In this document: in pieces, positions 28,357 through 39,162 of the stretch
Position numbering within the stretch: position 1 is the first letter of the stretch
Layout: every line of letters begins with the position of its first letter
Assembly: GCA_018819225.1 (NCBI GenBank)
Contig: JAHJQN010000004.1
Coordinates: 66,813 to 130,812, forward strand
DNA from: Candidatus Micrarchaeota archaeon
Lineage (GTDB): Archaea; Micrarchaeota; Micrarchaeia; Norongarragalinales; SBBD01
Direction: 5' to 3'
Length of the DNA stretch: 64,000 nucleotides
The notes under the pieces: model-generated
Databases searched by the model: none
The model's input: the letters and a program-made list of their open reading frames with translations, nothing else
Told to the model about the DNA's origin: nothing
Position numbers and translations under genes: made by a program

Positions 28357-28515
28357 TGGTATTTAAATCAGGCGCTGGGGATCGGGATTAAGCCCTCTAG
28401 GAGAAAGCCTAGAACGAAGAAGGAAGCGGCGGGAGGATGAGCGTATACGGCTGGACTACAACGCGGTATTCGAGAATACGAACGATTTTATAAATATCTT
28501 GAATTTATCTAATTC

Positions 28516-29247
28516 ATGCCAATACCCCATTTACGCTTATTACAAGCGGTTCATGTCCTAGGTGTGGACCATTCCTCTCAACAGAGTACGCAAAAAGTGG
28601 TTAACTATTTACATTTTGGTATTGGCCAAAAGGTAATTGAAGGTACCTCGGGTGCCATCGCAATCGATTCATCTATTCCACCGGGTGCAGACCCGAAATC
28701 AAGAAGTATAAATAATGGTAAACGAGTGGGCATTGAATTGACTAGAAAAGAACTAGAAGAGTTTCGAGAACTGTATCGGAAAATCATGAAAGGAGAAGAT
28801 CTCCCAAAGCGCGTATCCACAATTCATGATCCTTTTTTTATAAATATGGTTCGATATGAAGCGCTGCATGGCGTTCAACTGGTTCCAGTTGATTCTGAGA
28901 AATTAAAACAATATTACCTTCGAGCAATGGAACGTGCGGAAAAACTGAAACTTGCTGGAAATGCTGAAGAAGCAGCCAAGCAAGAAGCAAGAGCTAACGA
29001 AGCGTGGATTCCTGCTCGCGAAGCGGCAATTGCTCGAACCATTGCTCGGGAAAAGTTGAAAATTAATATTGTAGGCAGATTCCACTCGGAAGCAGTTTCG
29101 AAAAGATTGAATGAAGAGCATAATGTGACTGCTTTTCCATTGAAATTTGTTTCAGCTAGAATGGAATCGCGATTAAAACACTTTGATGATTTCGGTGGTT
29201 TTATTCGGGCCCGAGAAATGTATTCAAAAAGAAGAATGCGAAAATAG
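28516..29247 (+). CDS. Hypothetical protein (element cargo)
   Basis: 243-aa charged, coiled-coil-rich ORF inside the repeat-bounded region. Confidence 0.35.
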   Translation: MPIPHLRLLQAVHVLGVDHSSQQSTQKVVNYLHFGIGQKVIEGTSGAIAIDSSIPPGADPKSRSINNGKRVGIELTRKELEEFRELYRKIMKGEDLPKRVSTIHDPFFINMVRYEALHGVQLVPVDSEKLKQYYLRAMERAEKLKLAGNAEEAAKQEARANEAWIPAREAAIARTIAREKLKINIVGRFHSEAVSKRLNEEHNVTAFPLKFVSARMESRLKHFDDFGGFIRAREMYSKRRMRK

Positions 29248-29397
29248 TCGCGTAATATCTAACAGAATGATTTCTGTTATAAATAGACGCGCTGGGGATG
29301 GGCGTATAGGCTTGAGGGAGGCAAATCCGCGGATTCTAACTAATTGTTCAAGCGCCGGGGAGGAGATTCAGGCCAAATAGTTCGAATCTCCTACAAT

Positions 29398-29997
29398 TTA
29401 CTTCCTATTCTGTTTTGAATGTTTTTCTCGCTCTATCCAATAATCGTCTGCCAACTTCTTTTGTAGCTCCGCAGCCATCACTGACTCGGGTAAAATAACG
29501 GTCGAATCAATTTCTTGAGCTCGTCTATAGTCTTTCAACGCGCTCTTCATTTTTCCTGCATTTTCGAGAAAATATCCACGTTCAACATATGCTTCGGCAA
29601 ATAACGGATGATCTTTTATTATATTGCCCAATAATTTTATTGCTAAATCTAAGTTGCCCAAGTCTCCCAGGGTACGTGCGCGCATATACCGCAGATATGG
29701 ACTTTTAGGTGTTAACTTTAATCCTTCTTCGCAATAGAAGAGGCATTTATCATATTCGCCCGAATTCGAATATCCTAACGCTAGGTGTCTAAAGCTAAAC
29801 TCATCTGGATTCTTAACTTTTTTATATAACCAACGATGAGGAAATTTTTTTTCGGTTGTATGGATTCTATCCATATCTAACCGTAAGTCCTTTGTTTTTT
29901 CTGCAATATTATCAAAGGATTCGGGAGGATTCACCGGAGACTTATGCGATGATGGACTACCTAATATTTTGTTTTTAATTTTTTTTAATATACTCAT
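29398..29997 (-). CDS. TPR-repeat protein (element cargo)
   Basis: 199 aa with tetratricopeptide-like repeats (AEAYVERGYFLENAGKMKSALKDYRRAQEID, LYCEEGLKLTPKSPYLRYMRARTLGDLGN). Confidence 0.5.
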   Translation of the reverse strand: MSILKKIKNKILGSPSSHKSPVNPPESFDNIAEKTKDLRLDMDRIHTTEKKFPHRWLYKKVKNPDEFSFRHLALGYSNSGEYDKCLFYCEEGLKLTPKSPYLRYMRARTLGDLGNLDLAIKLLGNIIKDHPLFAEAYVERGYFLENAGKMKSALKDYRRAQEIDSTVILPESVMAAELQKKLADDYWIEREKHSKQNRK

Positions 29998-30034
29998 AAC
30001 TATCCCGATGAGATATTACTACTGCCTTCATGAA

Positions 30035-30307
30035 CTAATGTTTGAAAGTCTCATACTCTTTCTTGCTAATCTCATTCCCATCCGCAATACGAATCCGTTC
30101 TTTAGAATGCTCATCGCATAATTCGAATAATTTGTTCGCATATTCTAGTTCATGCTTAATCCCATGTATAAAATCTTCTATTTTTTCTACTATGTTTCGT
30201 TTATCTTCCTTAACATAGCTATACCGATAAAAGTGAGTTGGTTTTTGTTCACAATTTTTAATATAACAACGGTCAATATGCCATTCTATTGAAAACGAAG
30301 GTTCCAT
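30035..30307 (-). CDS. Hypothetical small protein (element cargo)
   Basis: 90-aa ORF with no motif recognised. Confidence 0.3.
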   Translation of the reverse strand: MEPSFSIEWHIDRCYIKNCEQKPTHFYRYSYVKEDKRNIVEKIEDFIHGIKHELEYANKLFELCDEHSKERIRIADGNEISKKEYETFKH

Positions 30308-30413
30308 AACAAACGTAGTACTTGAGGTACTATATATTTAACGGTAATAACTTGGGTAAGTATGTGCTCTTTCCCGCGACCTTATAAAGTATGTTTAAGC
30401 CATAATAATTGGG

Positions 30414-31334
30414 TTGAACATGGGAGAAACTCCCGCAGTTATCCGATGGCTCAAAACAAAAGAACCACGCTTCCAATTAAAGAAAAGCGACCTGATTTCA
30501 GGTGAGGAACTAGGAGCGTTATTGGCCGCATGTGACACTGTAAAAAAACGATTCTTTATTGCGGTTTTATATGAAAGTGGTGCACGAATAGGCGAATTGC
30601 TTTCTGCCACCGTTGGAAACGTAAAAGTAGACGCACATGGCATCATGTTAAGTGTAGACGGAAAAACAGGCCCGCGTTCTATACGATTAGTAACTTCTGC
30701 CGGTCAATTCGGAGAATATCTTAACGGACATCCCGAACGCAACAATCCAGATGCTCCCTTATTTTATTCAATTAAAGACGGACAATGCAAACAATGCGAA
30801 TACTGGACCGCTGCCAAAATGATGCGTCGTTTATTCACGAAGGCGGGCGTTTCAAAAGAAAAAGCCCACTTCCATCTGTTTAGGCACAGCCGTGCAGCAG
30901 AAACGAAGCGATTCATGCCCGAAGATTACCAACGAAGATTTTTTGGATGGGCTCATGGATCGGATATGCCCAGTCATTACGGAGCATTAGATTCCAGTGA
31001 CCTAGATAACATTTTACTATCCGCTTACGGAAAAGCGCAACGGAATGCGACAATTCCCGAGATCATTAACCGAATCTGTGAGTGCTGTCATCATGAGAAC
31101 TTTCCATCATCTGCATATTGTAGTGGATGCGGATGGAAACTCGGATTAAAGGCATCTCAATTACCACTAACCGAGCGCGAAATAGCTTTACTAAAGATCA
31201 TTGCGAACGCTCCGAACTATGAACAAGTGGTTTCATCCCTTCCAACGAATGAATTGGAGAAAATTACTTCTCGATTAATTGATTTACGAGATGGGGACCG
31301 GGACATTAAGTCAGGCGCTGGGGATGGGATTTGA
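30414..31334 (+). CDS. Tyrosine recombinase / phage-type integrase (XerA-like catalytic domain) with C-terminal zinc ribbon
   Basis: 306 aa. The catalytic residues appear in the canonical order: GARIGEL (Arg I), DGKTGPRSIRL (Lys), HLFRHS (His/Arg II), WAHGS (His) and PSHYGAL (Tyr nucleophile). It also has CECCHHEN...CSGCGWK. Its stop overlaps the 3' end of tRNA-Ser(CGA). Confidence 0.8.
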   Translation: MNMGETPAVIRWLKTKEPRFQLKKSDLISGEELGALLAACDTVKKRFFIAVLYESGARIGELLSATVGNVKVDAHGIMLSVDGKTGPRSIRLVTSAGQFGEYLNGHPERNNPDAPLFYSIKDGQCKQCEYWTAAKMMRRLFTKAGVSKEKAHFHLFRHSRAAETKRFMPEDYQRRFFGWAHGSDMPSHYGALDSSDLDNILLSAYGKAQRNATIPEIINRICECCHHENFPSSAYCSGCGWKLGLKASQLPLTEREIALLKIIANAPNYEQVVSSLPTNELEKITSRLIDLRDGDRDIKSGAGDGI

Positions 31335-31441
31335 ACCCATACGGGCCAGAGGCCCACCAGATATCTGGTCTTTCAACCTTTTTTTATAGTGTAGGCGAAA
31401 GATCTCGAGTCTGGCGCGTTACCGGATTCCGCCACCCCAGC
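31316..31441 (-). tRNA. tRNA-Ser(CGA), type II, with an intron of about 41 nt in the anticodon loop
   Basis: Manual fold: acceptor GCUGGGG/CCCCAGC; D-arm GCG...CGC; anticodon stem CCAGA/UCUGG with loop CUCGAGA (anticodon CGA); long variable arm GGGCC-UCU-GGCCC; T-arm AUGGG-UUCAAAU-CCCAU; discriminator G. About 41 nt are inserted at 37/38 (AUCUUUCGCCUACACUAUAAAAAAAGGUUGAAAGACCAGAU). Confidence 0.7.
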
Positions 31442-31469
31442 ATTAATCGTAGAACTCGATTGAATACGT

Positions 31470-32009
31470 TTATTGGAGGGAGAACGTATTTAAGTCTTCA
31501 TAAACCGCTCCCCTCGGAGAGAGAGTGCTCTTGCGTAGGATAAACTCCTTGACTTCAAACTCGCCGTACTTCTCTTGTTCCAACGCGTGCTTCAATTGCT
31601 TCAACTTGTCCACGTTCTTTTTACCTTTCACGCGGGAGATGGTGACGTGTCCGACATACGGTCCGCGGAACGGTTCTTCCAACAGTTCGCTCATCTTTTC
31701 ATGCATTTTTTGAAGTTGTTCCTCCGTTCCGTGCACGCCGACCCAAAACACTTTTATATAGTCCTCGCTCGGAAAAAATCCGCTTCCTTCCACTTGCAAA
31801 CGAAATTTGGGGAATTGAAATTGGACGAGTTTTTCCTTGATCTGTTGGGCCTCTTCCTCGGTTCTCTCGCCCAAGAATAGCAAGGTTACGTGAAGCTGTT
31901 CGGGTTTGGAAAACGAGGCGTGCAAGTCCAAGCGCTTGGCCTGGTGCGTCAATTGCTCTAGTTTGCGCTCGATTTCGTCTGGCAAGTCGATGGCGATGAA
32001 CAGGCGCAT
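31470..32009 (-). CDS. thpR: RNA 2',3'-cyclic phosphodiesterase / 2'-5' RNA ligase (2H phosphoesterase, ThpR/LigT)
   Basis: 179 aa with two H-x-T/S-x motifs (LHVTLLFLG and GHVTISRV) at the spacing typical of LigT/ThpR. Confidence 0.85.
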   Translation of the reverse strand: MRLFIAIDLPDEIERKLEQLTHQAKRLDLHASFSKPEQLHVTLLFLGERTEEEAQQIKEKLVQFQFPKFRLQVEGSGFFPSEDYIKVFWVGVHGTEEQLQKMHEKMSELLEEPFRGPYVGHVTISRVKGKKNVDKLKQLKHALEQEKYGEFEVKEFILRKSTLSPRGAVYEDLNTFSLQ

Positions 32010-32073
32010 AAACTTTAATTGAGAGGACAGCGTTTAAAAGGGTTTTACGCGTTAGGCTTTCCGATATCCGTCT

Positions 32074-32607
32074 ATGCGCTTTGCTCCATTTGCTCGAACG
32101 GCTTTCTTCATGGTATTCCTGGTTTCGATAGCGCTTTCTCTATCCGTTTCCGCGGGCGTAGCGGTACTCGTCAAGCAAGACGTGGATAAGGCCACGTGGC
32201 AGGCGCGTCCGTGGATGTCCCCCATTATCACGGAAGAAGAGTCGAAAGCCACTCGATGGATTGAAGAGAATACGTTGGAACGCGATATTTTTGTCACGGA
32301 TATTTTTGGCGGCGAACACATTATGGGCAATACGTTGCGGGAAGGCACGGAAGGAGGGGATTGGGCCATTGTTCCAGGAGTCGTTGAAAAAATGGGGGAA
32401 ATCAATGAGTTCTATTCGACGAAGGATGCGGATCGCGCGTATGTTCTTGCCACGAAGCATGGCGCGAAATACGTGTTGATTCCGAATCGACAAATCTTTG
32501 CGGGATTCAAATGGTTTTATCCCGAGAAAGGGAAAATGGAGAACGCTCAATATTTCAAGCGCGTGTATTCCGATAACGATTTTGAGATTTATCAAGTGAT
32601 TCGTTGA
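32074..32607 (+). CDS. Membrane-anchored soluble domain protein homologous to the C-terminal domains of GT-C/PMT-like glycosyltransferases
   Basis: 177 aa with an N-terminal signal anchor. The soluble domain (DADRAYVLATKHGAKYVLIPN...YFKRVYSDNDFEIYQVIR) is similar to the C-terminal domains of 19207-21057 and 33910-35829. Its stop overlaps the next membrane-protein gene by 4 nt. Confidence 0.4.
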   Translation: MRFAPFARTAFFMVFLVSIALSLSVSAGVAVLVKQDVDKATWQARPWMSPIITEEESKATRWIEENTLERDIFVTDIFGGEHIMGNTLREGTEGGDWAIVPGVVEKMGEINEFYSTKDADRAYVLATKHGAKYVLIPNRQIFAGFKWFYPEKGKMENAQYFKRVYSDNDFEIYQVIR

Positions 32608-33926
32608 TGAATGCATTCTTGATGATGAAAAGGAACCCGGTGCCGTTGCTGCTGCTTCTAGCCGTCGCGTTGAGTTTGTATACGCATTCCATGGTCTGGA
32701 AAGAGTTTACGATGCCCACGTACGGGAACACGTTCATTCACGTGGCAAGCATTCGGCACATGTTAGAACACGCGTCTTACCCCGTGATTGATTATTCGTA
32801 TGGCGGAGGGATTCCGAACCTTTACGTGCCGTTTTACCGCTTGTTTATCGCGAATTCCGTGTTGCTTACTGGCTTGTCCATTGACTTTATTTCTCGGTTG
32901 GCGGTCATGTTGTTTGCGATATTGGTGCCGCTAGGGTTCTTCGCGGTCACGAAGCGCTTGTTCGGCTTGAACGCGGGAATAGCGGCTGCTTTTCTGGCGA
33001 GTTTTCCTGGAGAACTCTTGATTTACACGGTTCGACCGCTACCGCAGTCACTGGGAATGGTCTTGCTCCCCGTTGCCTTCCTTGCTATATTCTCCGAAAA
33101 GTGGAGGCCGGCGTTGTTGATCACGTTTGGAATCGCCATGGTTCACCAGGAAGCAATTGCTTTTCTTGTGGGGGCGGTAGGCGTGTATGCTGCCGTTGCC
33201 TTTTTGTTCTATTTGATTGGTGAGGCGAAGAATATTCGAGTGGGAACTGCGCGCATGATGACGTCTTCTGCGCTTTCCGAGCTCAAAATCGCGCGTCTGG
33301 CAGTGGTTGTGGCGATCCTGGGACTCGCTTCGTACGTTTTATGGCACTATTTCGTCATGAACTCGTTCAACATCTTTGATATCGCTCAATTCAAGTATCA
33401 TGAAGGGGGTTTGGTGACCGTTGACTCCTTTCTAACTAAAACTGGCATTATCGTAACCGTTTTTTCGTTGTTGGGGCTTACGTTTGTGGGTTATCGGTTA
33501 CTGGAACTCGTTGCTTCCCAGTCCCATCGCTTCCGATCCTTGTCGAATGAAGTGCAGTTTGGGCTGCGTAACTCGGCGTTATTCTTGGTCGTGGCTTTGG
33601 CAACGTATTTTCATTTCAATAACTATTCGATGGCTTCCGTGAGCCTTCAAAGCCTTGGCTCGGCCATTGTACTGGGATTGATGATCGTCATTTTCGTGGC
33701 ATTTATCTCCCACACGCCGACGTTTATGCAATTGCCGAACTCCTCCTTCTTGTTCACGTTCGCGGTGTTCGGAGCTGGCGTAGCTGCAGTCAAGAATGAC
33801 GTGGTGGGCATTCGCGTATTCATGGACCGTTTCTTGGTTCACTTGCAGGAGCCCCTTATTATTTTGGCTGCGCTAGGAGTGGCAGCCGTATACGAATTCT
33901 TCGAAGCAATTAGGGAACGGCCTTGA
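32604..33926 (+). CDS. Polytopic membrane protein, GT-C glycosyltransferase-like membrane domain (lacks the soluble domain, which is encoded by the upstream gene)
   Basis: 440 aa with more than 10 TM helices and no large soluble domain. Translationally coupled to 32074-32607. Confidence 0.45.
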   Translation: MMNAFLMMKRNPVPLLLLLAVALSLYTHSMVWKEFTMPTYGNTFIHVASIRHMLEHASYPVIDYSYGGGIPNLYVPFYRLFIANSVLLTGLSIDFISRLAVMLFAILVPLGFFAVTKRLFGLNAGIAAAFLASFPGELLIYTVRPLPQSLGMVLLPVAFLAIFSEKWRPALLITFGIAMVHQEAIAFLVGAVGVYAAVAFLFYLIGEAKNIRVGTARMMTSSALSELKIARLAVVVAILGLASYVLWHYFVMNSFNIFDIAQFKYHEGGLVTVDSFLTKTGIIVTVFSLLGLTFVGYRLLELVASQSHRFRSLSNEVQFGLRNSALFLVVALATYFHFNNYSMASVSLQSLGSAIVLGLMIVIFVAFISHTPTFMQLPNSSFLFTFAVFGAGVAAVKNDVVGIRVFMDRFLVHLQEPLIILAALGVAAVYEFFEAIRERP

Positions 33927-35829
33927 ATAGCTCGTAACGCCGGTTTCCTTCCTCGTACTCCCATACGACTTCAAAGGCATTCGATTGACGGATTTGTCGG
34001 GAGAGGTTTCGGTTCTTGCTTAGCTCGAACGGACTCACTATTACGTAATCAATTCCGTGTACTCCGGACAGATCTCCGCGTTCGATGGCCGAGTTGACTA
34101 GTTTCCGTTGGTTTTGGTAATCCAATCCATGCGACCACATATGGCCTTCATAACCCATAACCACTTGTCTTCCTGCCAGTGAATAAATGAAGTGGTTGTG
34201 ACTGGAGGCGGTTAGAAACAACGCATTTTTTTCGGTAGTCTCGGAAACCTTTTGCGCGGCGTGAATATCGGAAGCGTGAAACAAGACGTGCGACGTATTA
34301 TTCCAGTACATGAACGTGAGGATTCCTGAAAAGATGCTTATGAATAACATGATCGAAACGATCCCCGTTGATAGAAAGCGATTCAATCGAATCCTATGAG
34401 CCAACCACGTGAACGCTCGTGATAAGGCAATGGATGCAAGGAAAGCGGTGAGGAGTAGCCAGTGCGCAAAATATTTGATGTTATCCCAATCCCACGGCTG
34501 GAACCGCGCGATATTGGCCGCTAGAAACACGAGGGCAAACGGGATATAGAACGTTCGAAGCTTGCTGTCCGCTAACACGAATCCAATCAATGCAAGCGGA
34601 ATCAATAACCCCGTATTCGCGATCCAGAAAACGCCTATATCCACTATATTGGTCGTATTGGCCAGCCAGCCGGCTTGCCATTCAAAAAACGTTTCGGTGC
34701 GGGGTTGTTCGTTTATCCATAACAGCTGTGGTAAAATTAGGAGGAAGCCAAATATCGCTGAGAAAAGAACGGGTTTCTCCAATTTCTTTTTTTGAAAAAT
34801 ACGCCATGCCAGCAAGAAAGCGGTTACGAAACCCGCGATAGCGAATGAAGCAATGTGGATAAGGGGAAGCAACGCTAGAACGAACGCGAGTAAATAATAT
34901 TCGTTGTTTTTCGCTTCGTTCCAATGAATGCGCGCCAACAACCAATACGCTACAAGGGATAAAGCGAAGCCCATCAATACGGTGCGTTGGGGAATGAATA
35001 CGGAATAAACGAGATTCATGAACTCAATGTGTTGGTCTTGAATTTTCGAGTAGTCTTGCGGAAGTCGTGATAAGAACGCACCGACATCCGGAGCGCCTTG
35101 AATGTCTTCAATGAAGGACAGGAATCCGAAATTCCCGTTAATAAAGAATAGGAGTATCGCAAACACGGCAACATACTTCATTTTTCCGGAAAGTGTTGAG
35201 AAGAATAATCTCGCAAGGAATACGAGAGCGAACAGCAAGAGCAAGTTCGGAATAATAATGCTATGCTGCAACGACAGGCCTCCAACAATTAAAATGGCTG
35301 AAAGGAAATCAAACAGAAAGGGATACCGCATGACCGCGCCCTCCAGATTCGGGTAAATGGGTGGAAAATTGTCGCGGAGAACGAACGAATTGATGATGCT
35401 GACGTGAAATGGGTAGTCCCCCCAGGCATTTTGAATGGAGTAAATGGATCCGCTCGAGTCCACGTTGAATGAAAGAAAGTTGAAATACGCCAATAAAAGA
35501 AATACGCCTAATGCGGCTGCGAATCCGTAAGAAATTCCGTTCAGTGAAAGTTCGGGTAATCCTTTTTGCCACCGCTTGTTCGAATTCAATAATGCAGTTG
35601 AGACGCCGACACTCATGATGACTACTCGTAGAATCATTAAGAAATCCAATTCGCGGACGATTAATGATAAAAGGAACGTCGCGAACGTAGTGATGGCAAG
35701 CCCCAACGCCATTCCGATGGCCAGAAATGTTGAAACGGATTTCTTGGTTGGAAAGTAAACGGAAATGGCGAACCCGAGTAGTACGCTGGATAGTACAAAC
35801 AAAAGGGCGAGCCACATGTGGTTTCCCAC
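33910..35829 (-). CDS. Polytopic membrane glycosyltransferase-like protein (GT-C/PMT-ArnT-like) with C-terminal soluble domain
   Basis: 639 aa. About 12 TM helices are followed by a soluble domain (DIHAAQKVSETTEKNALFLTASSHNHFIYSLAGRQVVMGYEGHMWSHGLDY...HGIDYVIVSPFELSKN...RRYELFKAVP). Confidence 0.5.
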   Translation of the reverse strand: MGNHMWLALLFVLSSVLLGFAISVYFPTKKSVSTFLAIGMALGLAITTFATFLLSLIVRELDFLMILRVVIMSVGVSTALLNSNKRWQKGLPELSLNGISYGFAAALGVFLLLAYFNFLSFNVDSSGSIYSIQNAWGDYPFHVSIINSFVLRDNFPPIYPNLEGAVMRYPFLFDFLSAILIVGGLSLQHSIIIPNLLLLFALVFLARLFFSTLSGKMKYVAVFAILLFFINGNFGFLSFIEDIQGAPDVGAFLSRLPQDYSKIQDQHIEFMNLVYSVFIPQRTVLMGFALSLVAYWLLARIHWNEAKNNEYYLLAFVLALLPLIHIASFAIAGFVTAFLLAWRIFQKKKLEKPVLFSAIFGFLLILPQLLWINEQPRTETFFEWQAGWLANTTNIVDIGVFWIANTGLLIPLALIGFVLADSKLRTFYIPFALVFLAANIARFQPWDWDNIKYFAHWLLLTAFLASIALSRAFTWLAHRIRLNRFLSTGIVSIMLFISIFSGILTFMYWNNTSHVLFHASDIHAAQKVSETTEKNALFLTASSHNHFIYSLAGRQVVMGYEGHMWSHGLDYQNQRKLVNSAIERGDLSGVHGIDYVIVSPFELSKNRNLSRQIRQSNAFEVVWEYEEGNRRYELFKAVP

Positions 35830-35925
35830 TAATCACATAAAATAACTATATAAACGCTCGGACGGCCTTTTCAAAAAAGTCGACCAAAAGTTGCATTTGA
35901 ATAATATGCACTCAATTTAAGAAAA

Positions 35926-35946
35926 AAAGCGGGCCCAACGGGATTC
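35926..35946. repeat. 21-bp direct repeat copy (duplicate of tRNA-Arg 3' end), aaagcgggcccaacgggattc
   Basis: Identical to 35989-36009 (the 3' acceptor/T-arm end of tRNA-Arg plus a 4-nt trailer), 42 bp upstream of it. Confidence 0.6.
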
Positions 35947-35988
35947 CGAACGACCTTTCTTATGAAGAAAGCTCGACCAAAGAAAAAG

Positions 35989-36009
35989 AAAGCGGGCCCA
36001 ACGGGATTC
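35989..36009. repeat. 21-bp direct repeat copy within tRNA-Arg 3' end
   Basis: See 35926-35946. Confidence 0.6.
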
Positions 36010-36175
36010 GAACCCGCAACCTACTGGTCTCTCCCCCATCACGCTGTTGCGCCGAAGGAAAAAGGACTAGCCCTTTTCCCGGGACCGAAGCCACGACTTC
36101 CGTCTCTTCCAATAAAAAGTGAAAGAGCAAGTGGGACCGGAACCAGTCGCTCTGTCCTGGTTGAGCTATGGGCCC
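35993..36175 (-). tRNA. tRNA-Arg(CCG) with an unusually long intron (about 108 nt) at the canonical 37/38 position
   Basis: Manual fold. Exon 1: GGGCCCA-UA-GCUC-AACCAGGACA-GAGC-G-ACUGG-UUCCGG. Exon 2: A-CCAGU-AGGUU-GCGGG-UUCGAAU-CCCGU-UGGGCCC-G. The acceptor, D, anticodon and T stems pair perfectly except for one G-U pair in the T stem. The anticodon is CCG. The sequence 36029-36136 is intronic. The intron length is far above typical, so the exact exon junctions are tentative. Confidence 0.55.
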
Positions 36176-36238
36176 TTATTTCAATTACCTGGTATTCTGA
36201 AGTTTAAAATACTTGGCCTGTCAGAAGTTATGCGCGTG

Positions 36239-36321
36239 GCCGGGGTGGCAGAGCGGTTATTGCGCTGGTCTTGAAAACCAGTTCCCGCAAGGGATCAGGA
36301 GTTCGAATCTCCTCCCCGGCG
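36239..36321 (+). tRNA. tRNA-Ser(TGA), type II, no intron
   Basis: GCCGGGG-UG-GCAG-AGCGGUUA-UUGC-G-CUGGU-CUUGAAA-ACCAG-UUCCCGCAAGGGAUC-AGGAG-UUCGAAU-CUCCU-CCCCGGC-G. Anticodon UGA. Long variable arm UCCC-GCAA-GGGA. Confidence 0.85.
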
Positions 36322-39162
36322 TTCAAAAGATAAGCTTTTATTTGATAGATTAGAAATGCGCTTCCGAACGATCAGGGAGACAATGCCTATAATGAAGAGA
36401 ATCATGATGGGATGCCATTCCGGTGTTCGGCTTGAAACGATTCCGGTTCTTTGAATGTCGCAGGAATCGCTTCCGACCCCTGAAGAAGCACGGACTTCAT
36501 AGTTTATGCTCAGTGGCGTGTCAACGATATACCTGAATACGTTTCCGTTTACTGCTTCCAATTGATGAGGAGCACCGCTTAAAACGACGCCCGAACATGC
36601 TTTTCCTTCAACGATACATTGAACGGTTATGCGGGTATGATCGGACGCAGTAATGCGCGGGCAGGCTAGGGATAACACGCTTGCTTCTTGATATTCACCT
36701 GGCAACCCGCCATCTCCTCCCGGATCGGGTGTTGGCGTAATGGGTGGAGCGCCTGGTGGAAGAATGGTTATACTGGCTTCATCCGAATCGGAAAGGCCGC
36801 CGTCATCCCACACCGTTAGTATAGCTAAACGAGTCGTTTCTTCCGTGCACATGACGTTAAACGTATCGGTTTGTTGTCCGTTCAAAATGCAGTCGGTAGT
36901 ATCATTTAATTCCCATAACCAGGCGACGATCGTTCCGTCCGGATCATGGGATGCACTTCCATCCACGTTGACATCAATGCCTACCCACGTAAACACGTCT
37001 CCTCCTGCATTTGCAGAAGGAGGTATGTTTTCTCCACCGGGTGTAGCAGAAATGATCCATTGTTCTTGAAGATAATCGCTTTGAGATTCGTTATCCACGC
37101 ACGTAGCATCTACCAGCCAAAGGCCTTCAAACAGTAATGGTACATCGGAGTGATCTAATACCCAAAAATCGGTTCCGGGTACTTGAACCGCGTTGTCGTT
37201 GAAGACTTCTGAACTGGCAGGGTTTGTCATCGATAGCGTAACGAGGTCTAAAGCATTTTCTGGATCCGTGCATTCTGTCCGTGTTTGGTAAACGGTTTCT
37301 TCAAAAACAAGACTCGTGCAGTCCCCCCAATTTTCTGAACCCGTAGAATCGCATTCGATAGAGCTAATTATTGGAGGTAAGTTAGAGTTGATTTCCCAAA
37401 CTTCGTCTCTGCTTGTGGTTTCAATGGGAAATCCGTGACATGTGGCTCTTAACCGCCAAGCCCCCCCTTTATCGACGGGAACATTTAGTCCCTGTAAGCT
37501 ATAGAAGTCCCCCTCTTGTTGAGTATACCATCCGGAAGCGCGTTCGATCATGTCCGGATCAATCAATCGGAAATCTACGTAATCGACACCCCAGTCTTCA
37601 TCCGCACATTCCGCTCCCACTGCGGTAATCATTTCCATATACCGTGCATTCGTGCAATTAACGAATCCATCCCCTTCATCGCAAAGAATGTCTCCGAGAA
37701 CCAGGGGAATGTTTTCATTAAACCGTTGGGCAAGGACGCTCGTGGGGGGCAACCCATGGATGTCCGATCCTTTCTTGCCGAAACCCATGATGACTCCCCC
37801 GCCGCTATCCGGAATCGATTTAACGCTTTGAAAACCAAATCCAGAGCTGTCCGTGGAAAGTATGATGTTTGGGTTCCATAACGGATCCTTAACGCCATTA
37901 CTTAGGTATTTCGTTACATAATAGTATCGATCTGCCCCGATGGTTACGTCCGCATAATGAAGATAGACATCGTTTAACGAATCCATGGTGGCATCAATGC
38001 TCCAAGCAGAATCATCGATCGTCTTTAGCGTAGTCCATTCTGGAGCGATGGTTCCATTCGCCTGAACGCGCTGTAAAAATGTACGGCCATGGTATCCTTG
38101 TCCATTGACGAACGTTTCGGTAGTCCTTCCAATATAGTAAAATCCATTTTCGTTATCTGGCAATATTTTTTCAATGAACCCCTTGTTTGGAAGCGTGAGG
38201 TCTATACCCGTACTTCCCCACACTGGAGCAGGTGAGCCATTCTCATCCAGCTTGAGGAAACGCACGCGGTATTCGCTTCCTGGTAATCGGTAGTTTATTC
38301 CAACATAAGTGTATCCGTCACTAGAACGCGCTATGTATGCAAATGATTGCCATTCCCAAGCCGGATTATGATTCTGAATCAAAAAACCTTCTGCCGGCCA
38401 GCCCACTTCAACATCTCCACTCCCGTCCAAACGAATCAAGTAGATTTTTCCATCTGAAGTATCATGCCATGAAACAAATACGCCTCCATTCCCGTCGATG
38501 ATGCCACCGGCCATTCCTGAATTAGAGTTAGGAGCGTATATCGATTCCTTGATTAACGTCCTGAATAAAACCGTTCCCGTCGGACTTACTTTTAAGGCCC
38601 ATAAATCAGCCACACTAGAACCTAGTTTTCCGCAATCACCAGAGTTTCGACAGCGAGTATAAACGACATAGAAGTTACCATCGGAATCCGTAAACATATC
38701 CTTCAAATAGTTTTTTCCTTCATCCGAGTTATGGATTCTGGTTTTTCCCCAAATAATATTTTCATTCCCATCCAATCGTGCAGCGTACAGATTATAGTCA
38801 TATCCATAAGCAGGCGGCACGTTTGTTGCCCAAACCATGTATACTCCATTTGCGCCATCACTCGCAGACATTAGCCCGTGGCTCCATGGAGAAAAGTTTA
38901 CGTCAAGACTCCATAACGGTCTCCCAAAACTATTGAAATGATTTACAAAAGGTTGTGGATCCGCATAACCATTAACCGTTGCGTCATCCACCCATGTCAC
39001 GAATGCGCCGCCGAGTCCGTCATCAGCGATTTGAACCGTCTGGCCGCGATGATCGGAGACTTCCCAACGATAGGCTCCATAGAGGTGTTGGATGGCTGCT
39101 TCAGAAGAACTGGAAACAAGCAGCAATACCATGGCGATTTTGAGTAAGTGGTTCATGAACAA
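36295..39162 (-). CDS. Large secreted surface protein (third paralog): beta-propeller-like repeats + conserved Cys C-terminal domain + TPXXXP-type TM tail
   Basis: 955 aa with a signal peptide (MFMNHLLKIAMVLLLVSSSSEA). C-terminus CPRITASDHTRITVQCIVEGKAC...GSDSCDIQRTGIVSSRTPEWHPIMILFIIGIVSLIVRKR. The last roughly 9 codons overlap the 3' end of tRNA-Ser(TGA) on the other strand. Confidence 0.6.
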   Translation of the reverse strand: MFMNHLLKIAMVLLLVSSSSEAAIQHLYGAYRWEVSDHRGQTVQIADDGLGGAFVTWVDDATVNGYADPQPFVNHFNSFGRPLWSLDVNFSPWSHGLMSASDGANGVYMVWATNVPPAYGYDYNLYAARLDGNENIIWGKTRIHNSDEGKNYLKDMFTDSDGNFYVVYTRCRNSGDCGKLGSSVADLWALKVSPTGTVLFRTLIKESIYAPNSNSGMAGGIIDGNGGVFVSWHDTSDGKIYLIRLDGSGDVEVGWPAEGFLIQNHNPAWEWQSFAYIARSSDGYTYVGINYRLPGSEYRVRFLKLDENGSPAPVWGSTGIDLTLPNKGFIEKILPDNENGFYYIGRTTETFVNGQGYHGRTFLQRVQANGTIAPEWTTLKTIDDSAWSIDATMDSLNDVYLHYADVTIGADRYYYVTKYLSNGVKDPLWNPNIILSTDSSGFGFQSVKSIPDSGGGVIMGFGKKGSDIHGLPPTSVLAQRFNENIPLVLGDILCDEGDGFVNCTNARYMEMITAVGAECADEDWGVDYVDFRLIDPDMIERASGWYTQQEGDFYSLQGLNVPVDKGGAWRLRATCHGFPIETTSRDEVWEINSNLPPIISSIECDSTGSENWGDCTSLVFEETVYQTRTECTDPENALDLVTLSMTNPASSEVFNDNAVQVPGTDFWVLDHSDVPLLFEGLWLVDATCVDNESQSDYLQEQWIISATPGGENIPPSANAGGDVFTWVGIDVNVDGSASHDPDGTIVAWLWELNDTTDCILNGQQTDTFNVMCTEETTRLAILTVWDDGGLSDSDEASITILPPGAPPITPTPDPGGDGGLPGEYQEASVLSLACPRITASDHTRITVQCIVEGKACSGVVLSGAPHQLEAVNGNVFRYIVDTPLSINYEVRASSGVGSDSCDIQRTGIVSSRTPEWHPIMILFIIGIVSLIVRKRISNLSNKSLSFERRGGDSNS

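What the first reader, a model, noticed from the sequence alone, without database searches (positions are those of the whole stretch)
35926..36175. tRNA-Arg(CCG) with an exceptionally long intron of about 108 nt, plus a 21-bp duplication of its 3' end
A 39-nt 5' exon (36137-36175, minus strand) and a 36-nt 3' exon (35993-36028) fold into a standard tRNA-Arg(CCG). The acceptor, D and anticodon stems pair perfectly, and the T stem has one G-U pair. The exons are separated by 108 nt at position 37/38. Most archaeal tRNA introns are 15-40 nt, so this is well above typical.

The intron contains internal hairpins (GGCTTCGG..., CCTTCGGCG) and a GTGATGG box-C-like sequence. I see no clear D box, so an embedded sRNA cannot be asserted.

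Separately, the last 17 nt of the tRNA plus a 4-nt trailer (aaagcgggcccaacgggattc) are duplicated 42 bp away at 35926-35946. This could be a footprint of a past integration or excision event at this tRNA. A third tRNA, Ser(TGA), lies 64 bp away on the other strand.
Basis: seen in the sequence. Interest (0 to 1): 0.55.

Follow-up and report, generated by a model that had tools for sequence, protein, structure and literature searches.

The report
Long-intron tRNA-Arg gene, att-like repeat
This is a working arginine tRNA gene of a tiny DPANN archaeon (Micrarchaeota), split by a 108-base intron whose 18-base central hairpin is conserved in every relative examined, and followed by a 21-base copy of its own 3' end that looks like a mobile-element scar.

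Summary
Window 35993-36175 (minus strand) is a tRNA-Arg(CCG) gene: a 39-nt exon, a 108-nt intron at 37/38 and a 36-nt exon. It has a textbook bulge-helix-bulge splice motif.

The exact 21-nt repeat (35989-36009 and 35926-35946) is real and occurs nowhere else in the window.

New results:
- **Host.** The organism is a Micrarchaeota (DPANN) MAG.
- **Conserved intron.** All 11 distinct Micrarchaeota tRNA-Arg(CCG) genes I could retrieve carry a long 37/38 intron of 54-108 nt. These introns cannot be aligned except for an 18-nt core, GGRAGKCGNNGCUUCGRU (window 36084-36101), which is as conserved as the exons.
- **What the core is not.** It fits a 4-5 bp hairpin. It has no C/D or H/ACA boxes, no K-turn, no Rfam match and no significant antisense target. 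Its function is unknown.
- **The repeat.** It starts in the T-loop and runs 4 nt past the gene. An integrase-bearing element 4.6 kb away at tRNA-Ser(CGA) is flanked by repeats of the same geometry. Two distant relatives carry their own exact, lineage-matched repeats. An integration scar is the best reading; a local tandem duplication is the main rival.

A 108-nt intron is long but within the known range of 11-129 nt.

The parts
35993..36175 (-). Complete tRNA-Arg(CCG) gene, 183 nt including the intron
   Evidence: Rfam RF00005 at 48.4 bits, model positions 1-71. The spliced product is called tRNA-Arg(ccg) by ARAGORN.
36137..36175 (-). 5' exon, 39 nt (tRNA positions 1-37, with two extra D-loop bases)
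   Evidence: Sequence and exon/intron split.
36029..36136 (-). 108-nt BHB intron at canonical position 37/38
   Evidence: The cleavage rule, after the 2nd bulge nucleotide, comes from the ARMAN-2 endonuclease-RNA structure (PMC12397907).
35993..36028 (-). 3' exon, 36 nt (tRNA positions 38-73)
36139..36142 (-). 5' strand of the BHB central helix (U32 U33 C34 C35)
   Evidence: Pairs 4 of 4 with GGAG at 36031-36034. Summed over the 11 homologues, 42 of 44 pairs form.
36031..36034 (-). 3' strand of the BHB central helix (intron positions -6 to -3, GGAG)
36084..36101 (-). Conserved intron core GGAAGUCGUGGCUUCGGU (intron nt 36-53). Predicted hairpin GAAGU/GCUUC with loop CGUG.
   Evidence: 13 of 18 columns are invariant in 11 genes, while the mean column identity of the whole intron alignment is 40%. 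The hairpin is compatible with 96% of cells. It is the only exact copy in the window.
35989..36009 (-). Repeat copy 1: tRNA positions 57-73 plus a 4-nt trailer (GAATCCCGTTGGGCCCGCTTT)
35926..35946 (-). Repeat copy 2, identical 21 nt, period 63
35947..35988 (-). 42-nt spacer between the repeats: part of a T-rich tract, TTTGGTCGA, and the hairpin CTTTCTT-CAT-AAGAAAG (35955-35971)
   Evidence: TTTGGTCGA plus a similar hairpin recur after copy 2.
35979..35992 (-). T-rich tract CTTTCTTTTTCTTT immediately after the tRNA; likely transcription stop
   Evidence: Sequence and terminator-like call. That oligo-T acts as a terminator in archaea is general knowledge, not tested here.
36203..36211 (-). TATA-like box TATTTTAAA, 27 nt upstream of tRNA position 1
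   Evidence: Sequence. The same AGTATTTTAAA is conserved upstream in relative L005. Promoter function is inferred.

Best explanation
This is a functional tRNA-Arg(CCG) gene of a Micrarchaeota (DPANN) archaeon.

**Expression and splicing.** The gene is probably transcribed from the TATA-like box about 30 nt upstream and terminated at the T-rich tract after position 73 (inferred). The precursor forms a canonical helix-bulge-helix-bulge-helix motif. The anticodon stem is the outer helix, UUCC/GGAG is the 4-bp central helix, two 3-nt bulges flank it, and CCCA/UGGG is the inner helix (shown from sequence). The archaeal splicing endonuclease should cut after the second nucleotide of each bulge, removing 108 nt between positions 37 and 38. 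RNA ligase should then join the exons and circularise the intron (inferred from established archaeal tRNA splicing).

**Conserved core.** The long intron is not an accident of this genome. It is an ancestral feature of Micrarchaeota tRNA-Arg(CCG), retained because of an 18-nt core, GGRAGKCGNNGCUUCGRU. My best guess is that the core is a short hairpin (GAAG/CUUC stem with a KCGNNG loop) read sequence-specifically by a protein or by a tertiary contact. It could act on the precursor or on the excised intron. It is not a box C/D guide. Conservation is shown; the role is inferred and unknown in detail.

**The repeat.** The 21-bp repeat is most likely an attL/attR-type duplication. It would have been made by a tyrosine-recombinase element that integrated into the T-loop-to-3'-end segment of the gene and has since been reduced to a 42-bp remnant (inferred).
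For: **Gene and splice motif**
- Searches support the gene, exon boundaries and BHB register.
- Position 37 is a purine in all 11 genes only in the 37/38 register.

**Host**
- The neighbouring 635-aa protein is identical to NCBI KJ765_02545 of a Candidatus Micrarchaeota archaeon.
- All 6 species-representative genomes matching a 5'-exon-only pattern are Micrarchaeota or unclassified archaeal MAGs.

**Lineage-wide long intron with a conserved core**
- 11 distinct genes were found without reference to the intron: by an exon pattern or by synteny.
- All have 54-108-nt introns with the core.
- The core is invariant at 13 of 18 positions, against 28 of 39 in the 5' exon.
- Its distance from either splice site varies (11-43 nt and 18-55 nt), so it is not part of the splice motif.
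- The hairpin is compatible with 96% of cells.

**Repeat**
- It is exact and unique in the window.
- It starts in the T-loop and extends 4 nt past the gene.
- The same geometry is seen around an integrase ORF (PF00589, 30414-31334) at tRNA-Ser(CGA), with repeats at 31306-31338, 29280-29312 and 28363-28395.
- Relatives L005 and L011 have their own exact repeats of 21 and 18 nt. Each matches its own acceptor stem, and L005's also matches its own trailer. Their periods are 118 and 125. Eight other genes have none.
Against: **Expression**
- There are no expression data. Splicing, intron stability and circularisation are untested.

**Core**
- The hairpin has no compensatory substitution: 0 pairs change on both sides. 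The structure therefore rests on compatibility only.
- Its closing U-G pair becomes G-G in 2 of 11 genes.
- The conserved flanking G36, G51 and U53 are not explained by the hairpin.

**Repeat**
- There are no integrase or element genes between the copies, only 42 bp.
- The spacer resembles the sequence after copy 2 (TTTGGTCGA plus a hairpin), as a simple tandem duplication would predict.
- No convincing attP was found in IMG/VR.
- Three exact, lineage-matched repeats in distant genomes require either three independent events or some force keeping the copies identical.
Confidence: 0.7

Rival explanations
1. The 21-bp repeat is a local tandem duplication of the tRNA 3' end plus its terminator hairpin (unit about 63 bp), made by replication slippage or unequal recombination. 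No mobile element was involved.
For: The copies are only 42 bp apart with no element genes. The sequence after copy 1 and the sequence after copy 2 share TTTGGTCGA followed by a pyrimidine/purine hairpin (score 24, 1 of 200 shuffles as good). Upstream of copy 2, AGGTCG..TTCGG resembles the T-arm 5' part.
Against: The 21-nt block is exact while both flanks are heavily diverged with indels. This fits attP/attB identity blocks better than a single duplication. In three distant lineages the repeat starts at nearly the same place in the T-loop (C56, G57 or A59) and ends 0-6 nt past the gene, which random duplications would not do. Integrase-linked repeats of the same geometry lie 4.6 kb away.
Confidence: 0.25
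2. The conserved core is a guide-like or switch element. Its 5' half, GGAAGUCG, pairs with tRNA positions 25-28 and 32-35, competing with the anticodon stem and the BHB. This would direct an intron-dependent modification or gate splicing, by analogy with the box C/D guide in tRNA-Trp introns.
For: The pairing is compatible with 97.7% of 88 cells. There is one compensatory change: A27-U41 becomes C27-G41 in L009. RNAalifold on exon plus core also prefers exon-core pairs.
Against: 90 of 500 column shuffles reach the same scores. L007 has the U41G change uncompensated. Core-to-exon duplex energies are no better than for shuffled cores (z from -1.0 to +0.8 in all 11 genes). There are no C/D boxes, and the even more conserved 3' half, GCUUCGRU, has no exon partner.
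Confidence: 0.15
3. The core is conserved for no functional reason: slow divergence, or a DNA-level accident such as a recombination or protein-binding site in the gene.
For: There is no covariation and no identified partner. As DNA, the core contains a GAAG-N6-CTTC inverted repeat.
Against: The rest of the intron has diverged beyond alignment in sequence and length, while the core keeps 13 of 18 invariant positions across genomes whose neighbouring proteins are only 38-49% identical. Genomic neighbourhoods differ among the loci, which argues against a role in regulating adjacent genes.
Confidence: 0.07
4. The gene is tRNA-Trp(CCA), with both splice sites 2 nt upstream (35/36), as ARAGORN reports when introns are allowed.
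For: ARAGORN run with -i0,150 calls tRNA-Trp(cca) i(38,108) on the same span. Intron position -2 is A in all 11 genes, so a CCA anticodon would always result.
Against: That register gives 16 of 44 central-helix pairs and no outer helix, against 42 of 44 pairs and an outer helix in 11 of 11 genes for 37/38. It would put U at position 37 in two genes. A20 and G73 fit Arg identity (general knowledge of tRNA identity elements). ARAGORN does not model BHB motifs.
Confidence: 0.02
5. The repeat marks a second intron in the T-loop: the true 3' exon is copy 2, and 63 nt are spliced out in register.
For: Any in-register excision gives the same mature sequence. Relative L003 does have a genuine 36-nt BHB intron at 53/54 containing the same kind of hairpin.
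Against: No acceptable BHB exists for any in-register cut in the T-loop of the window, L005 or L011. The best case has 3 of 4 central-helix pairs (all G-U wobbles) and no inner helix. The only 4 of 4 hits come from the palindromic GGCC of the acceptor strand. A T-rich terminator separates the copies. The hairpin is a generic element found elsewhere.
Confidence: 0.03
6. The gene is a disrupted pseudogene: a tRNA broken by an insertion.
For: ARAGORN with default settings does not find it.
Against: All four stems are intact and the BHB is canonical. A conserved TATA-like box and a T-tract are present. The same architecture is kept in 11 genomes.
Confidence: 0.03

Closest known systems
Euryarchaeal tRNA-Trp(CCA) intron carrying a box C/D small RNA (for example Haloferax volcanii, 103 nt)
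   Same: It is a long intron at 37/38 retained across a whole lineage because of an embedded conserved RNA element. Until now it is the only isodecoder class described with a long median intron (65 nt; PMC4090602; PMC11408192; PMC7714728).
   Different: The isoacceptor (Arg CCG) and the phylum (Micrarchaeota) differ. Here there are no conserved C, D, C' or D' boxes, no K-turn, and no contiguous guide complementarity that beats shuffled controls. The conserved part is a single 18-nt hairpin-like core.
Ordinary archaeal BHB introns at position 37/38
   Same: The hBHBh' geometry, cut positions and expected enzymes (EndA, RtcB-type ligase) are identical.
   Different: Typical medians are 12-25 nt with no conserved internal sequence. 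Here the intron is 54-108 nt with an invariant core.
tRNA-targeted integrative elements of archaea and bacteria (tyrosine-recombinase att sites covering the T-loop to the 3' end of a tRNA gene)
   Same: There is a direct repeat of the tRNA 3' part that begins in the T-loop and runs past the gene end. A bona fide integrase-linked example with the same geometry lies in the same window.
   Different: No integrase or cargo lies between the copies, only 42 bp. No attP partner was found.
Disrupted tRNA genes of ARMAN-2 / Ca. Micrarchaeum and the epsilon2 splicing endonuclease
   Same: The phylum is the same. Intron-rich tRNA sets and non-canonical introns are described there (PMC3239211). Relative L003 has such a second intron at 53/54.
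   Different: Those papers concern enzyme specificity and non-canonical positions. I found no description of a conserved tRNA-Arg(CCG) intron core.

Membership tests
Archaeal BHB (bulge-helix-bulge) tRNA intron | A 4-bp central helix flanked on opposite strands by two 3-nt bulges, with outer and inner helices | tested here: met
   Central helix UUCC/GGAG, 4 of 4 pairs. Bulges GG|U and AG|A. Outer helix is the 5-bp anticodon stem. Inner helix is CCCA/UGGG. Across 11 genes: 42 of 44 central-helix pairs, outer helix in 11 of 11, inner helix of at least 2 bp in 10 of 11.
Archaeal BHB (bulge-helix-bulge) tRNA intron | Cutting after the 2nd nucleotide of each bulge yields exons that fold into a cloverleaf with a 7-nt anticodon loop | tested here: met
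   Cleavage rule from PMC12397907. The spliced 75-mer is tRNA-Arg(ccg) with loop UUCCGGA.
Archaeal BHB (bulge-helix-bulge) tRNA intron | Actual cleavage by the splicing endonuclease and ligation in vivo | not testable with these tools
   No RNA data are available.
tRNA-Arg (identity) | Anticodon C35 with G/U36, and A20 in the D-loop | tested here: met
   Anticodon CCG. The D-loop AACCAGGACA has A directly after G18G19, and this A is kept in all 11 genes. The identity rules come from general knowledge and were not tested for this phylum.
Box C/D sRNA embedded in a tRNA intron (tRNA-Trp type) | Conserved C box (RUGAUGA) and D box (CUGA) able to form a K-turn | tested here: not met
   The window has GUGAUGG but no CUGA. 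Neither box is present in the ten relatives.
Box C/D sRNA embedded in a tRNA intron (tRNA-Trp type) | A guide stretch complementary to the target next to a D or D' box | tested here: not met
   Only an interrupted 4+4 complementarity to positions 25-28 and 32-35, no better than shuffled cores. No adjacent D' box.
Any curated RNA family (Rfam 15) | Covariance-model match to the intron | tested here: not met
   Only tRNA hits at E up to 1 over 31000-36600. For the intron alone at E up to 10, there is one chance hit at 12.8 bits against a gathering score of 50.
Integrase att-site duplication at a tRNA gene | Exact direct repeat comprising the 3' part of the tRNA and extending beyond it | tested here: met
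   21 nt, made of positions 57-73 plus 4 nt, occurring exactly twice.
Integrase att-site duplication at a tRNA gene | Integrase gene and element DNA between or next to the repeats | tested here: not met
   Only 42 bp lie between the copies. The nearest integrase (30414-31334) belongs to the tRNA-Ser(CGA) site.
Integrase att-site duplication at a tRNA gene | Matching attP on a free virus or plasmid | tested here: inconclusive
   The 21-mer has no hit in IMG/VR. Hits to shorter 3'-end strings are phage tRNAs or a bacteriophage coding region. Micrarchaeota mobile elements are poorly sampled.

The most novel reading that the evidence does not exclude
The invariant 18-nt core defines a previously undescribed intron-embedded functional RNA module, retained across the phylum Micrarchaeota in tRNA-Arg(CCG). 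It would be a second case, after the box C/D guide in tRNA-Trp introns, of a tRNA intron kept for what it carries. It would work by a different mechanism: a protein-binding or regulatory hairpin acting on the precursor or as a stable circular RNA.
Probability: 0.3. Interest if true: 0.7.

Novelty: new variant of a known kind. Interest (0 to 1): 0.5.

Why it matters
Why archaea keep tRNA introns is an old open question. The one clear answer so far is the tRNA-Trp intron, which houses a box C/D guide RNA.

A second lineage-wide long intron, in a different tRNA and phylum, has a core as conserved as the tRNA body but no known motif. This gives a concrete, testable object: an 18-nt element that can be mutated, pulled down or looked for in small-RNA or circular-RNA data from DPANN-containing communities.

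The att-like repeats at the same gene, present in three distant genomes and absent in others, add a small data point. They suggest that tRNA genes in these reduced genomes are active integration sites. They also show how 3'-end duplications arise, a proposed route to disrupted tRNA genes.

Tried and rejected
- **Box C/D sRNA.** The C-like box is specific to the window and no D box exists in any homologue.
- **K-turn or K-loop in the core.** This needs A at position 52, but 8 of 11 genes have G. In the window only, CCCA-CUU-G / GA-UGGG near the intron ends is K-turn-like, but it is not conserved (hand analysis).
- **T-arm mimic or cUUCGg tetraloop hairpin.** The flanking stems do not pair consistently, and the C47-G52 pair is broken in the 3 genes with A52 (hand analysis).
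- **Nested BHB or bulge-helix-loop at the core.** There is no consistent outer helix.
- **Antisense target in 16S or 23S rRNA (L006).** None found.
- **Exon-core guide pairing.** It is compatible but not better than controls.
- **Rfam at relaxed thresholds.** Nothing.
- **The core elsewhere.** Only one copy per locus. The nine IMG/VR hits lie in unrelated sequence with no tRNA-Arg exon context and are consistent with chance.
- **T-loop-intron reading of the repeat.** No BHB.
- **Homology of the spacers in the window, L005 and L011 with L003's T-arm intron.** They share only a pyrimidine/purine palindromic hairpin that also occurs at unrelated sites, so I do not claim common origin.
- **attP search in IMG/VR.** No convincing hit.
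- **Literature.** I found no description of this intron core.
- **Not obtained.** ARAGORN with default settings missed both intron-bearing tRNAs. The look-up for homologue P0007 returned no DNA.

Full report
**1. Is it there?**

Yes. Rfam's tRNA model matches window 35993-36175 on the minus strand from model position 1 to 71. The score is 48.4 bits against a gathering score of 29, with a single large insertion in the anticodon loop. ARAGORN with default settings misses it.

Reading the sequence gives:
- a 39-nt 5' exon at 36175-36137;
- a 108-nt intron at 36136-36029;
- a 36-nt 3' exon at 36028-35993.

The joined exons are called tRNA-Arg(ccg) by ARAGORN. The acceptor, D and anticodon stems are perfect, and the T stem has one G-U pair.

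The 21-mer GAATCCCGTTGGGCCCGCTTT occurs exactly twice, at 35989-36009 and 35926-35946. No third copy exists even with 3 mismatches, and 0.00 matches are expected by chance.

**2. Splice register and identity**

The precursor forms a textbook helix-bulge-helix-bulge-helix motif:
- The anticodon stem is the outer helix.
- U32U33C34C35 pairs with GGAG at intron positions -6 to -3 to form the 4-bp central helix.
- The bulges are G36 G37|U and A G|A38.
- CCCA/UGGG is the inner helix.

[quoted passage not shown] That places the cuts at 37/38.

ARAGORN with introns allowed reports the same span as tRNA-Trp(cca). It does so by moving both cuts 2 nt upstream. I tested every register from -4 to +2 on 11 homologues:

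| Register | Central-helix pairs | Outer helix | Inner helix of at least 2 bp | Purine at position 37 |
|---|---|---|---|---|
| 37/38 | 42 of 44 | 11 of 11 | 10 of 11 | all 11 |
| 35/36 (ARAGORN) | 16 of 44 | none | 3 of 11 | U in two genes |

The gene is therefore tRNA-Arg(CCG). A TATA-like TATTTTAAA lies 27 nt upstream and is conserved in relative L005. A T-rich tract follows position 73. Nothing suggests a pseudogene.

**3. Whose gene is it?**

The adjacent 635-aa protein is identical to a hypothetical protein of a Candidatus Micrarchaeota archaeon MAG, on a contig of 709 kb. It also occurs on a Logan contig from SRR6514730.

A scan of 185,579 species-representative genomes with a pattern specifying only the D arm and anticodon arm of the 5' exon returned six contigs. 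All were Micrarchaeota or unclassified archaeal MAGs. The same pattern found two JGI metagenome contigs. Homologues of the neighbouring protein led to three more syntenic or related loci.

This gave 11 distinct tRNA-Arg(CCG) genes. None was selected on any property of the intron.

**4. The intron is a lineage feature with a conserved core**

All 11 genes have an intron at 37/38. Its length ranges from 54 to 108 nt, and the window's is the longest.

The introns differ completely in sequence, length and lineage-specific hairpins. The exception is one block, G36 G37 R A39 G40 K C42 G43 N N G46 C47 U48 U49 C50 G51 R U53, at window 36084-36101. MAFFT finds 13 invariant columns, all in this block, while the mean column identity of the whole intron alignment is 40%. 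For comparison, 28 of 39 columns are invariant in the 5' exon.

The block sits 11-43 nt from the 5' splice site and 18-55 nt from the 3' splice site. It is therefore not part of the splice motif.

The simplest fold is a hairpin, GAAG(U)/(G)CUUC, with the loop (K)CGNN(G). This fits 96% of cells but shows no change on both sides of any pair. In the short introns (L009, L004, L008) the hairpin caps a longer stem. In L003 it is the middle of three hairpins (hand reading).

**5. What the core is not**

- **Not a C/D or H/ACA element.** No C/D boxes are conserved, and the window's GUGAUGG is private to it. There is no ACA box. No K-turn is possible, because position 52 is G in 8 of 11 genes.
- **No Rfam family.** Nothing matches even at E = 10.
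- **No antisense target.** None was found in a linked 16S/23S rRNA.
- **No other copy.** There is none in the window or in any held locus. The IMG/VR matches lie in unrelated sequence with no tRNA-Arg exon context and are consistent with chance.
- **Exon pairing is not supported.** The 5' half, GGAAGUCG, is complementary to tRNA positions 25-28 and 32-35. L009 carries a compensating A27C/U41G pair, but L007 has U41G uncompensated. 90 of 500 shuffles do as well. Predicted core-exon duplexes are no stronger than for shuffled cores in any of the 11 genes. I keep this guide or switch idea only as a rival.

My working explanation is that the core is a short hairpin read in a sequence-specific way, by a protein or a tertiary contact. 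It could act on the precursor or on the excised, probably circular, intron. Selection on the core would then be why the long intron is retained. The conservation is shown. The mechanism is inferred.

**6. The 21-bp repeat**

Copy 1 covers tRNA positions 57-73 plus 4 trailer bases. Copy 2 lies 42 bp further on (period 63).

The spacer holds part of the T-tract, TTTGGTCGA, and the hairpin CTTTCTT-CAT-AAGAAAG.

Evidence favouring an integration scar:
- An integrase ORF (PF00589, 30414-31334) lies 4.6 kb away and abuts a second intron-bearing tRNA, Ser(CGA) at 31316-31441. That tRNA's 3' end, again from the T-loop AAUCCC to about 10 nt past the gene, is repeated at 29280-29312 and 28363-28395. The segment is low in GC.
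- Relative L005 has ATCCCGTTGGGCCCGTTGACC twice, with period 118.
- Relative L011 has CGAATCCCGTAAGGCCCG twice, with period 125.
- Each of these repeats is exact and matches its own acceptor stem; L005's also matches its own trailer. L012 and seven other genes have no second copy.
- Presence in some lineages and absence in others, a common left boundary in the T-loop, and extension beyond the gene are what tyrosine-recombinase att sites look like.

Evidence against:
- No element genes lie between the copies.
- The sequence after copy 2 repeats TTTGGTCGA plus a similar hairpin, as a plain tandem duplication would.
- No attP was found.

I put the scar reading at roughly 0.6 and tandem duplication at 0.25.

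A third reading treats the repeat as a T-loop intron with copy 2 as the real 3' exon. It fails because no in-register cut has a usable BHB in any of the three genomes.

The spacer hairpin also occurs inside a genuine second intron (53/54) of L003's tRNA-Arg. It recurs at unrelated intergenic sites too, so I do not infer common origin.

**7. Comparison with what is known**

Archaeal tRNA introns range from 11 to 129 nt, with medians of 12-25 nt. The exception is tRNA-Trp (median 65 nt), whose intron nests a box C/D RNA (PMC4090602). The H. volcanii tRNA-Trp intron is 103 nt (PMC7714728). So 108 nt is long but not unprecedented.

The closest analogue in logic is the tRNA-Trp intron: a long intron kept across a lineage for an embedded element. 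This one fails every defining feature of a C/D RNA.

Micrarchaeota (ARMAN-2) are known for intron-rich tRNA sets and a broad-specificity epsilon2 endonuclease (PMC3239211). I found no report of a conserved tRNA-Arg(CCG) intron element.

**8. Verdict**

On its own the finding would be a new member of known kinds. The lineage-wide 18-nt core makes it a new variant: a conserved long tRNA intron that does not host a C/D guide.

Limits:
- Only 11 sequences were available.
- No covariation was detected.
- There are no RNA data.

Noticed in passing
window 31316-31441 (minus strand): A second intron-bearing tRNA, Ser(CGA), with an intron of about 41 nt and a long variable arm. ARAGORN with default settings misses it. 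The splice register is ambiguous by 2 nt because of an AU repeat, and the central helix has 3 of 4 pairs in the 37/38 register.
   Followed up: partly
window 28363-31338: Small, low-GC (0.41-0.44) integrated element or two tandem remnants at tRNA-Ser(CGA). The integrase ORF 30414-31334 (PF00589) overlaps the tRNA 3' end. Copies of the tRNA 3' end lie at 31306-31338, 29280-29312 and 28363-28395. Relative L011 also has an integrase directly after its tRNA-Ser(CGA).
   Followed up: partly
window 31470-35817; L011-L015: A gene block is shared with related Micrarchaeota: a 635-aa protein, a 439-aa protein and a 177-aa protein (none with confident Pfam hits), then a LigT-like 2',3'-cyclic phosphodiesterase / 2'-5' RNA ligase family protein (PF02834) in the window and L011-L014. 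In the window, L011 and L012 the intron-containing tRNA-Ser(CGA) follows LigT; L015 has the tRNA but no LigT call, and no tRNA was found in L013 or L014.
   Followed up: no
L003 6209-6374: This Micrarchaeota tRNA-Arg(CCG) has a second, 36-nt intron at 53/54 in the T arm. Its relaxed BHB is good (central helix CGCG/CGCG, bulges GG|U and AA|U, inner helix GACU/GGUC) but has no outer helix.
   Followed up: partly
window 35955-35971; L005 2745; L011 3884; L003 6327; L007 3562, 3629, 3690; L013 9511, 9603; L006 1074, 2244, 7045: A pyrimidine/purine palindromic hairpin (CTTTYCTT..AAGRAAAG) recurs next to tRNA and rRNA genes and in other intergenic spots in several Micrarchaeota contigs. It may be a generic terminator-like element.
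   Followed up: no
L004 7078-7365 (minus strand): A group I catalytic intron (RF00028, 59 bits) lies beside or inside the 23S rRNA gene of a Micrarchaeota MAG. This is in line with the published report that group I introns occur in archaea, including Micrarchaeota (PMC6125680).
   Followed up: no
window 36029-36136 (ends of the intron): In the window only, the inner BHB helix CCCA/UGGG is followed by CUU-G on one strand and GA on the other. It is not conserved in any relative.
   Followed up: partly
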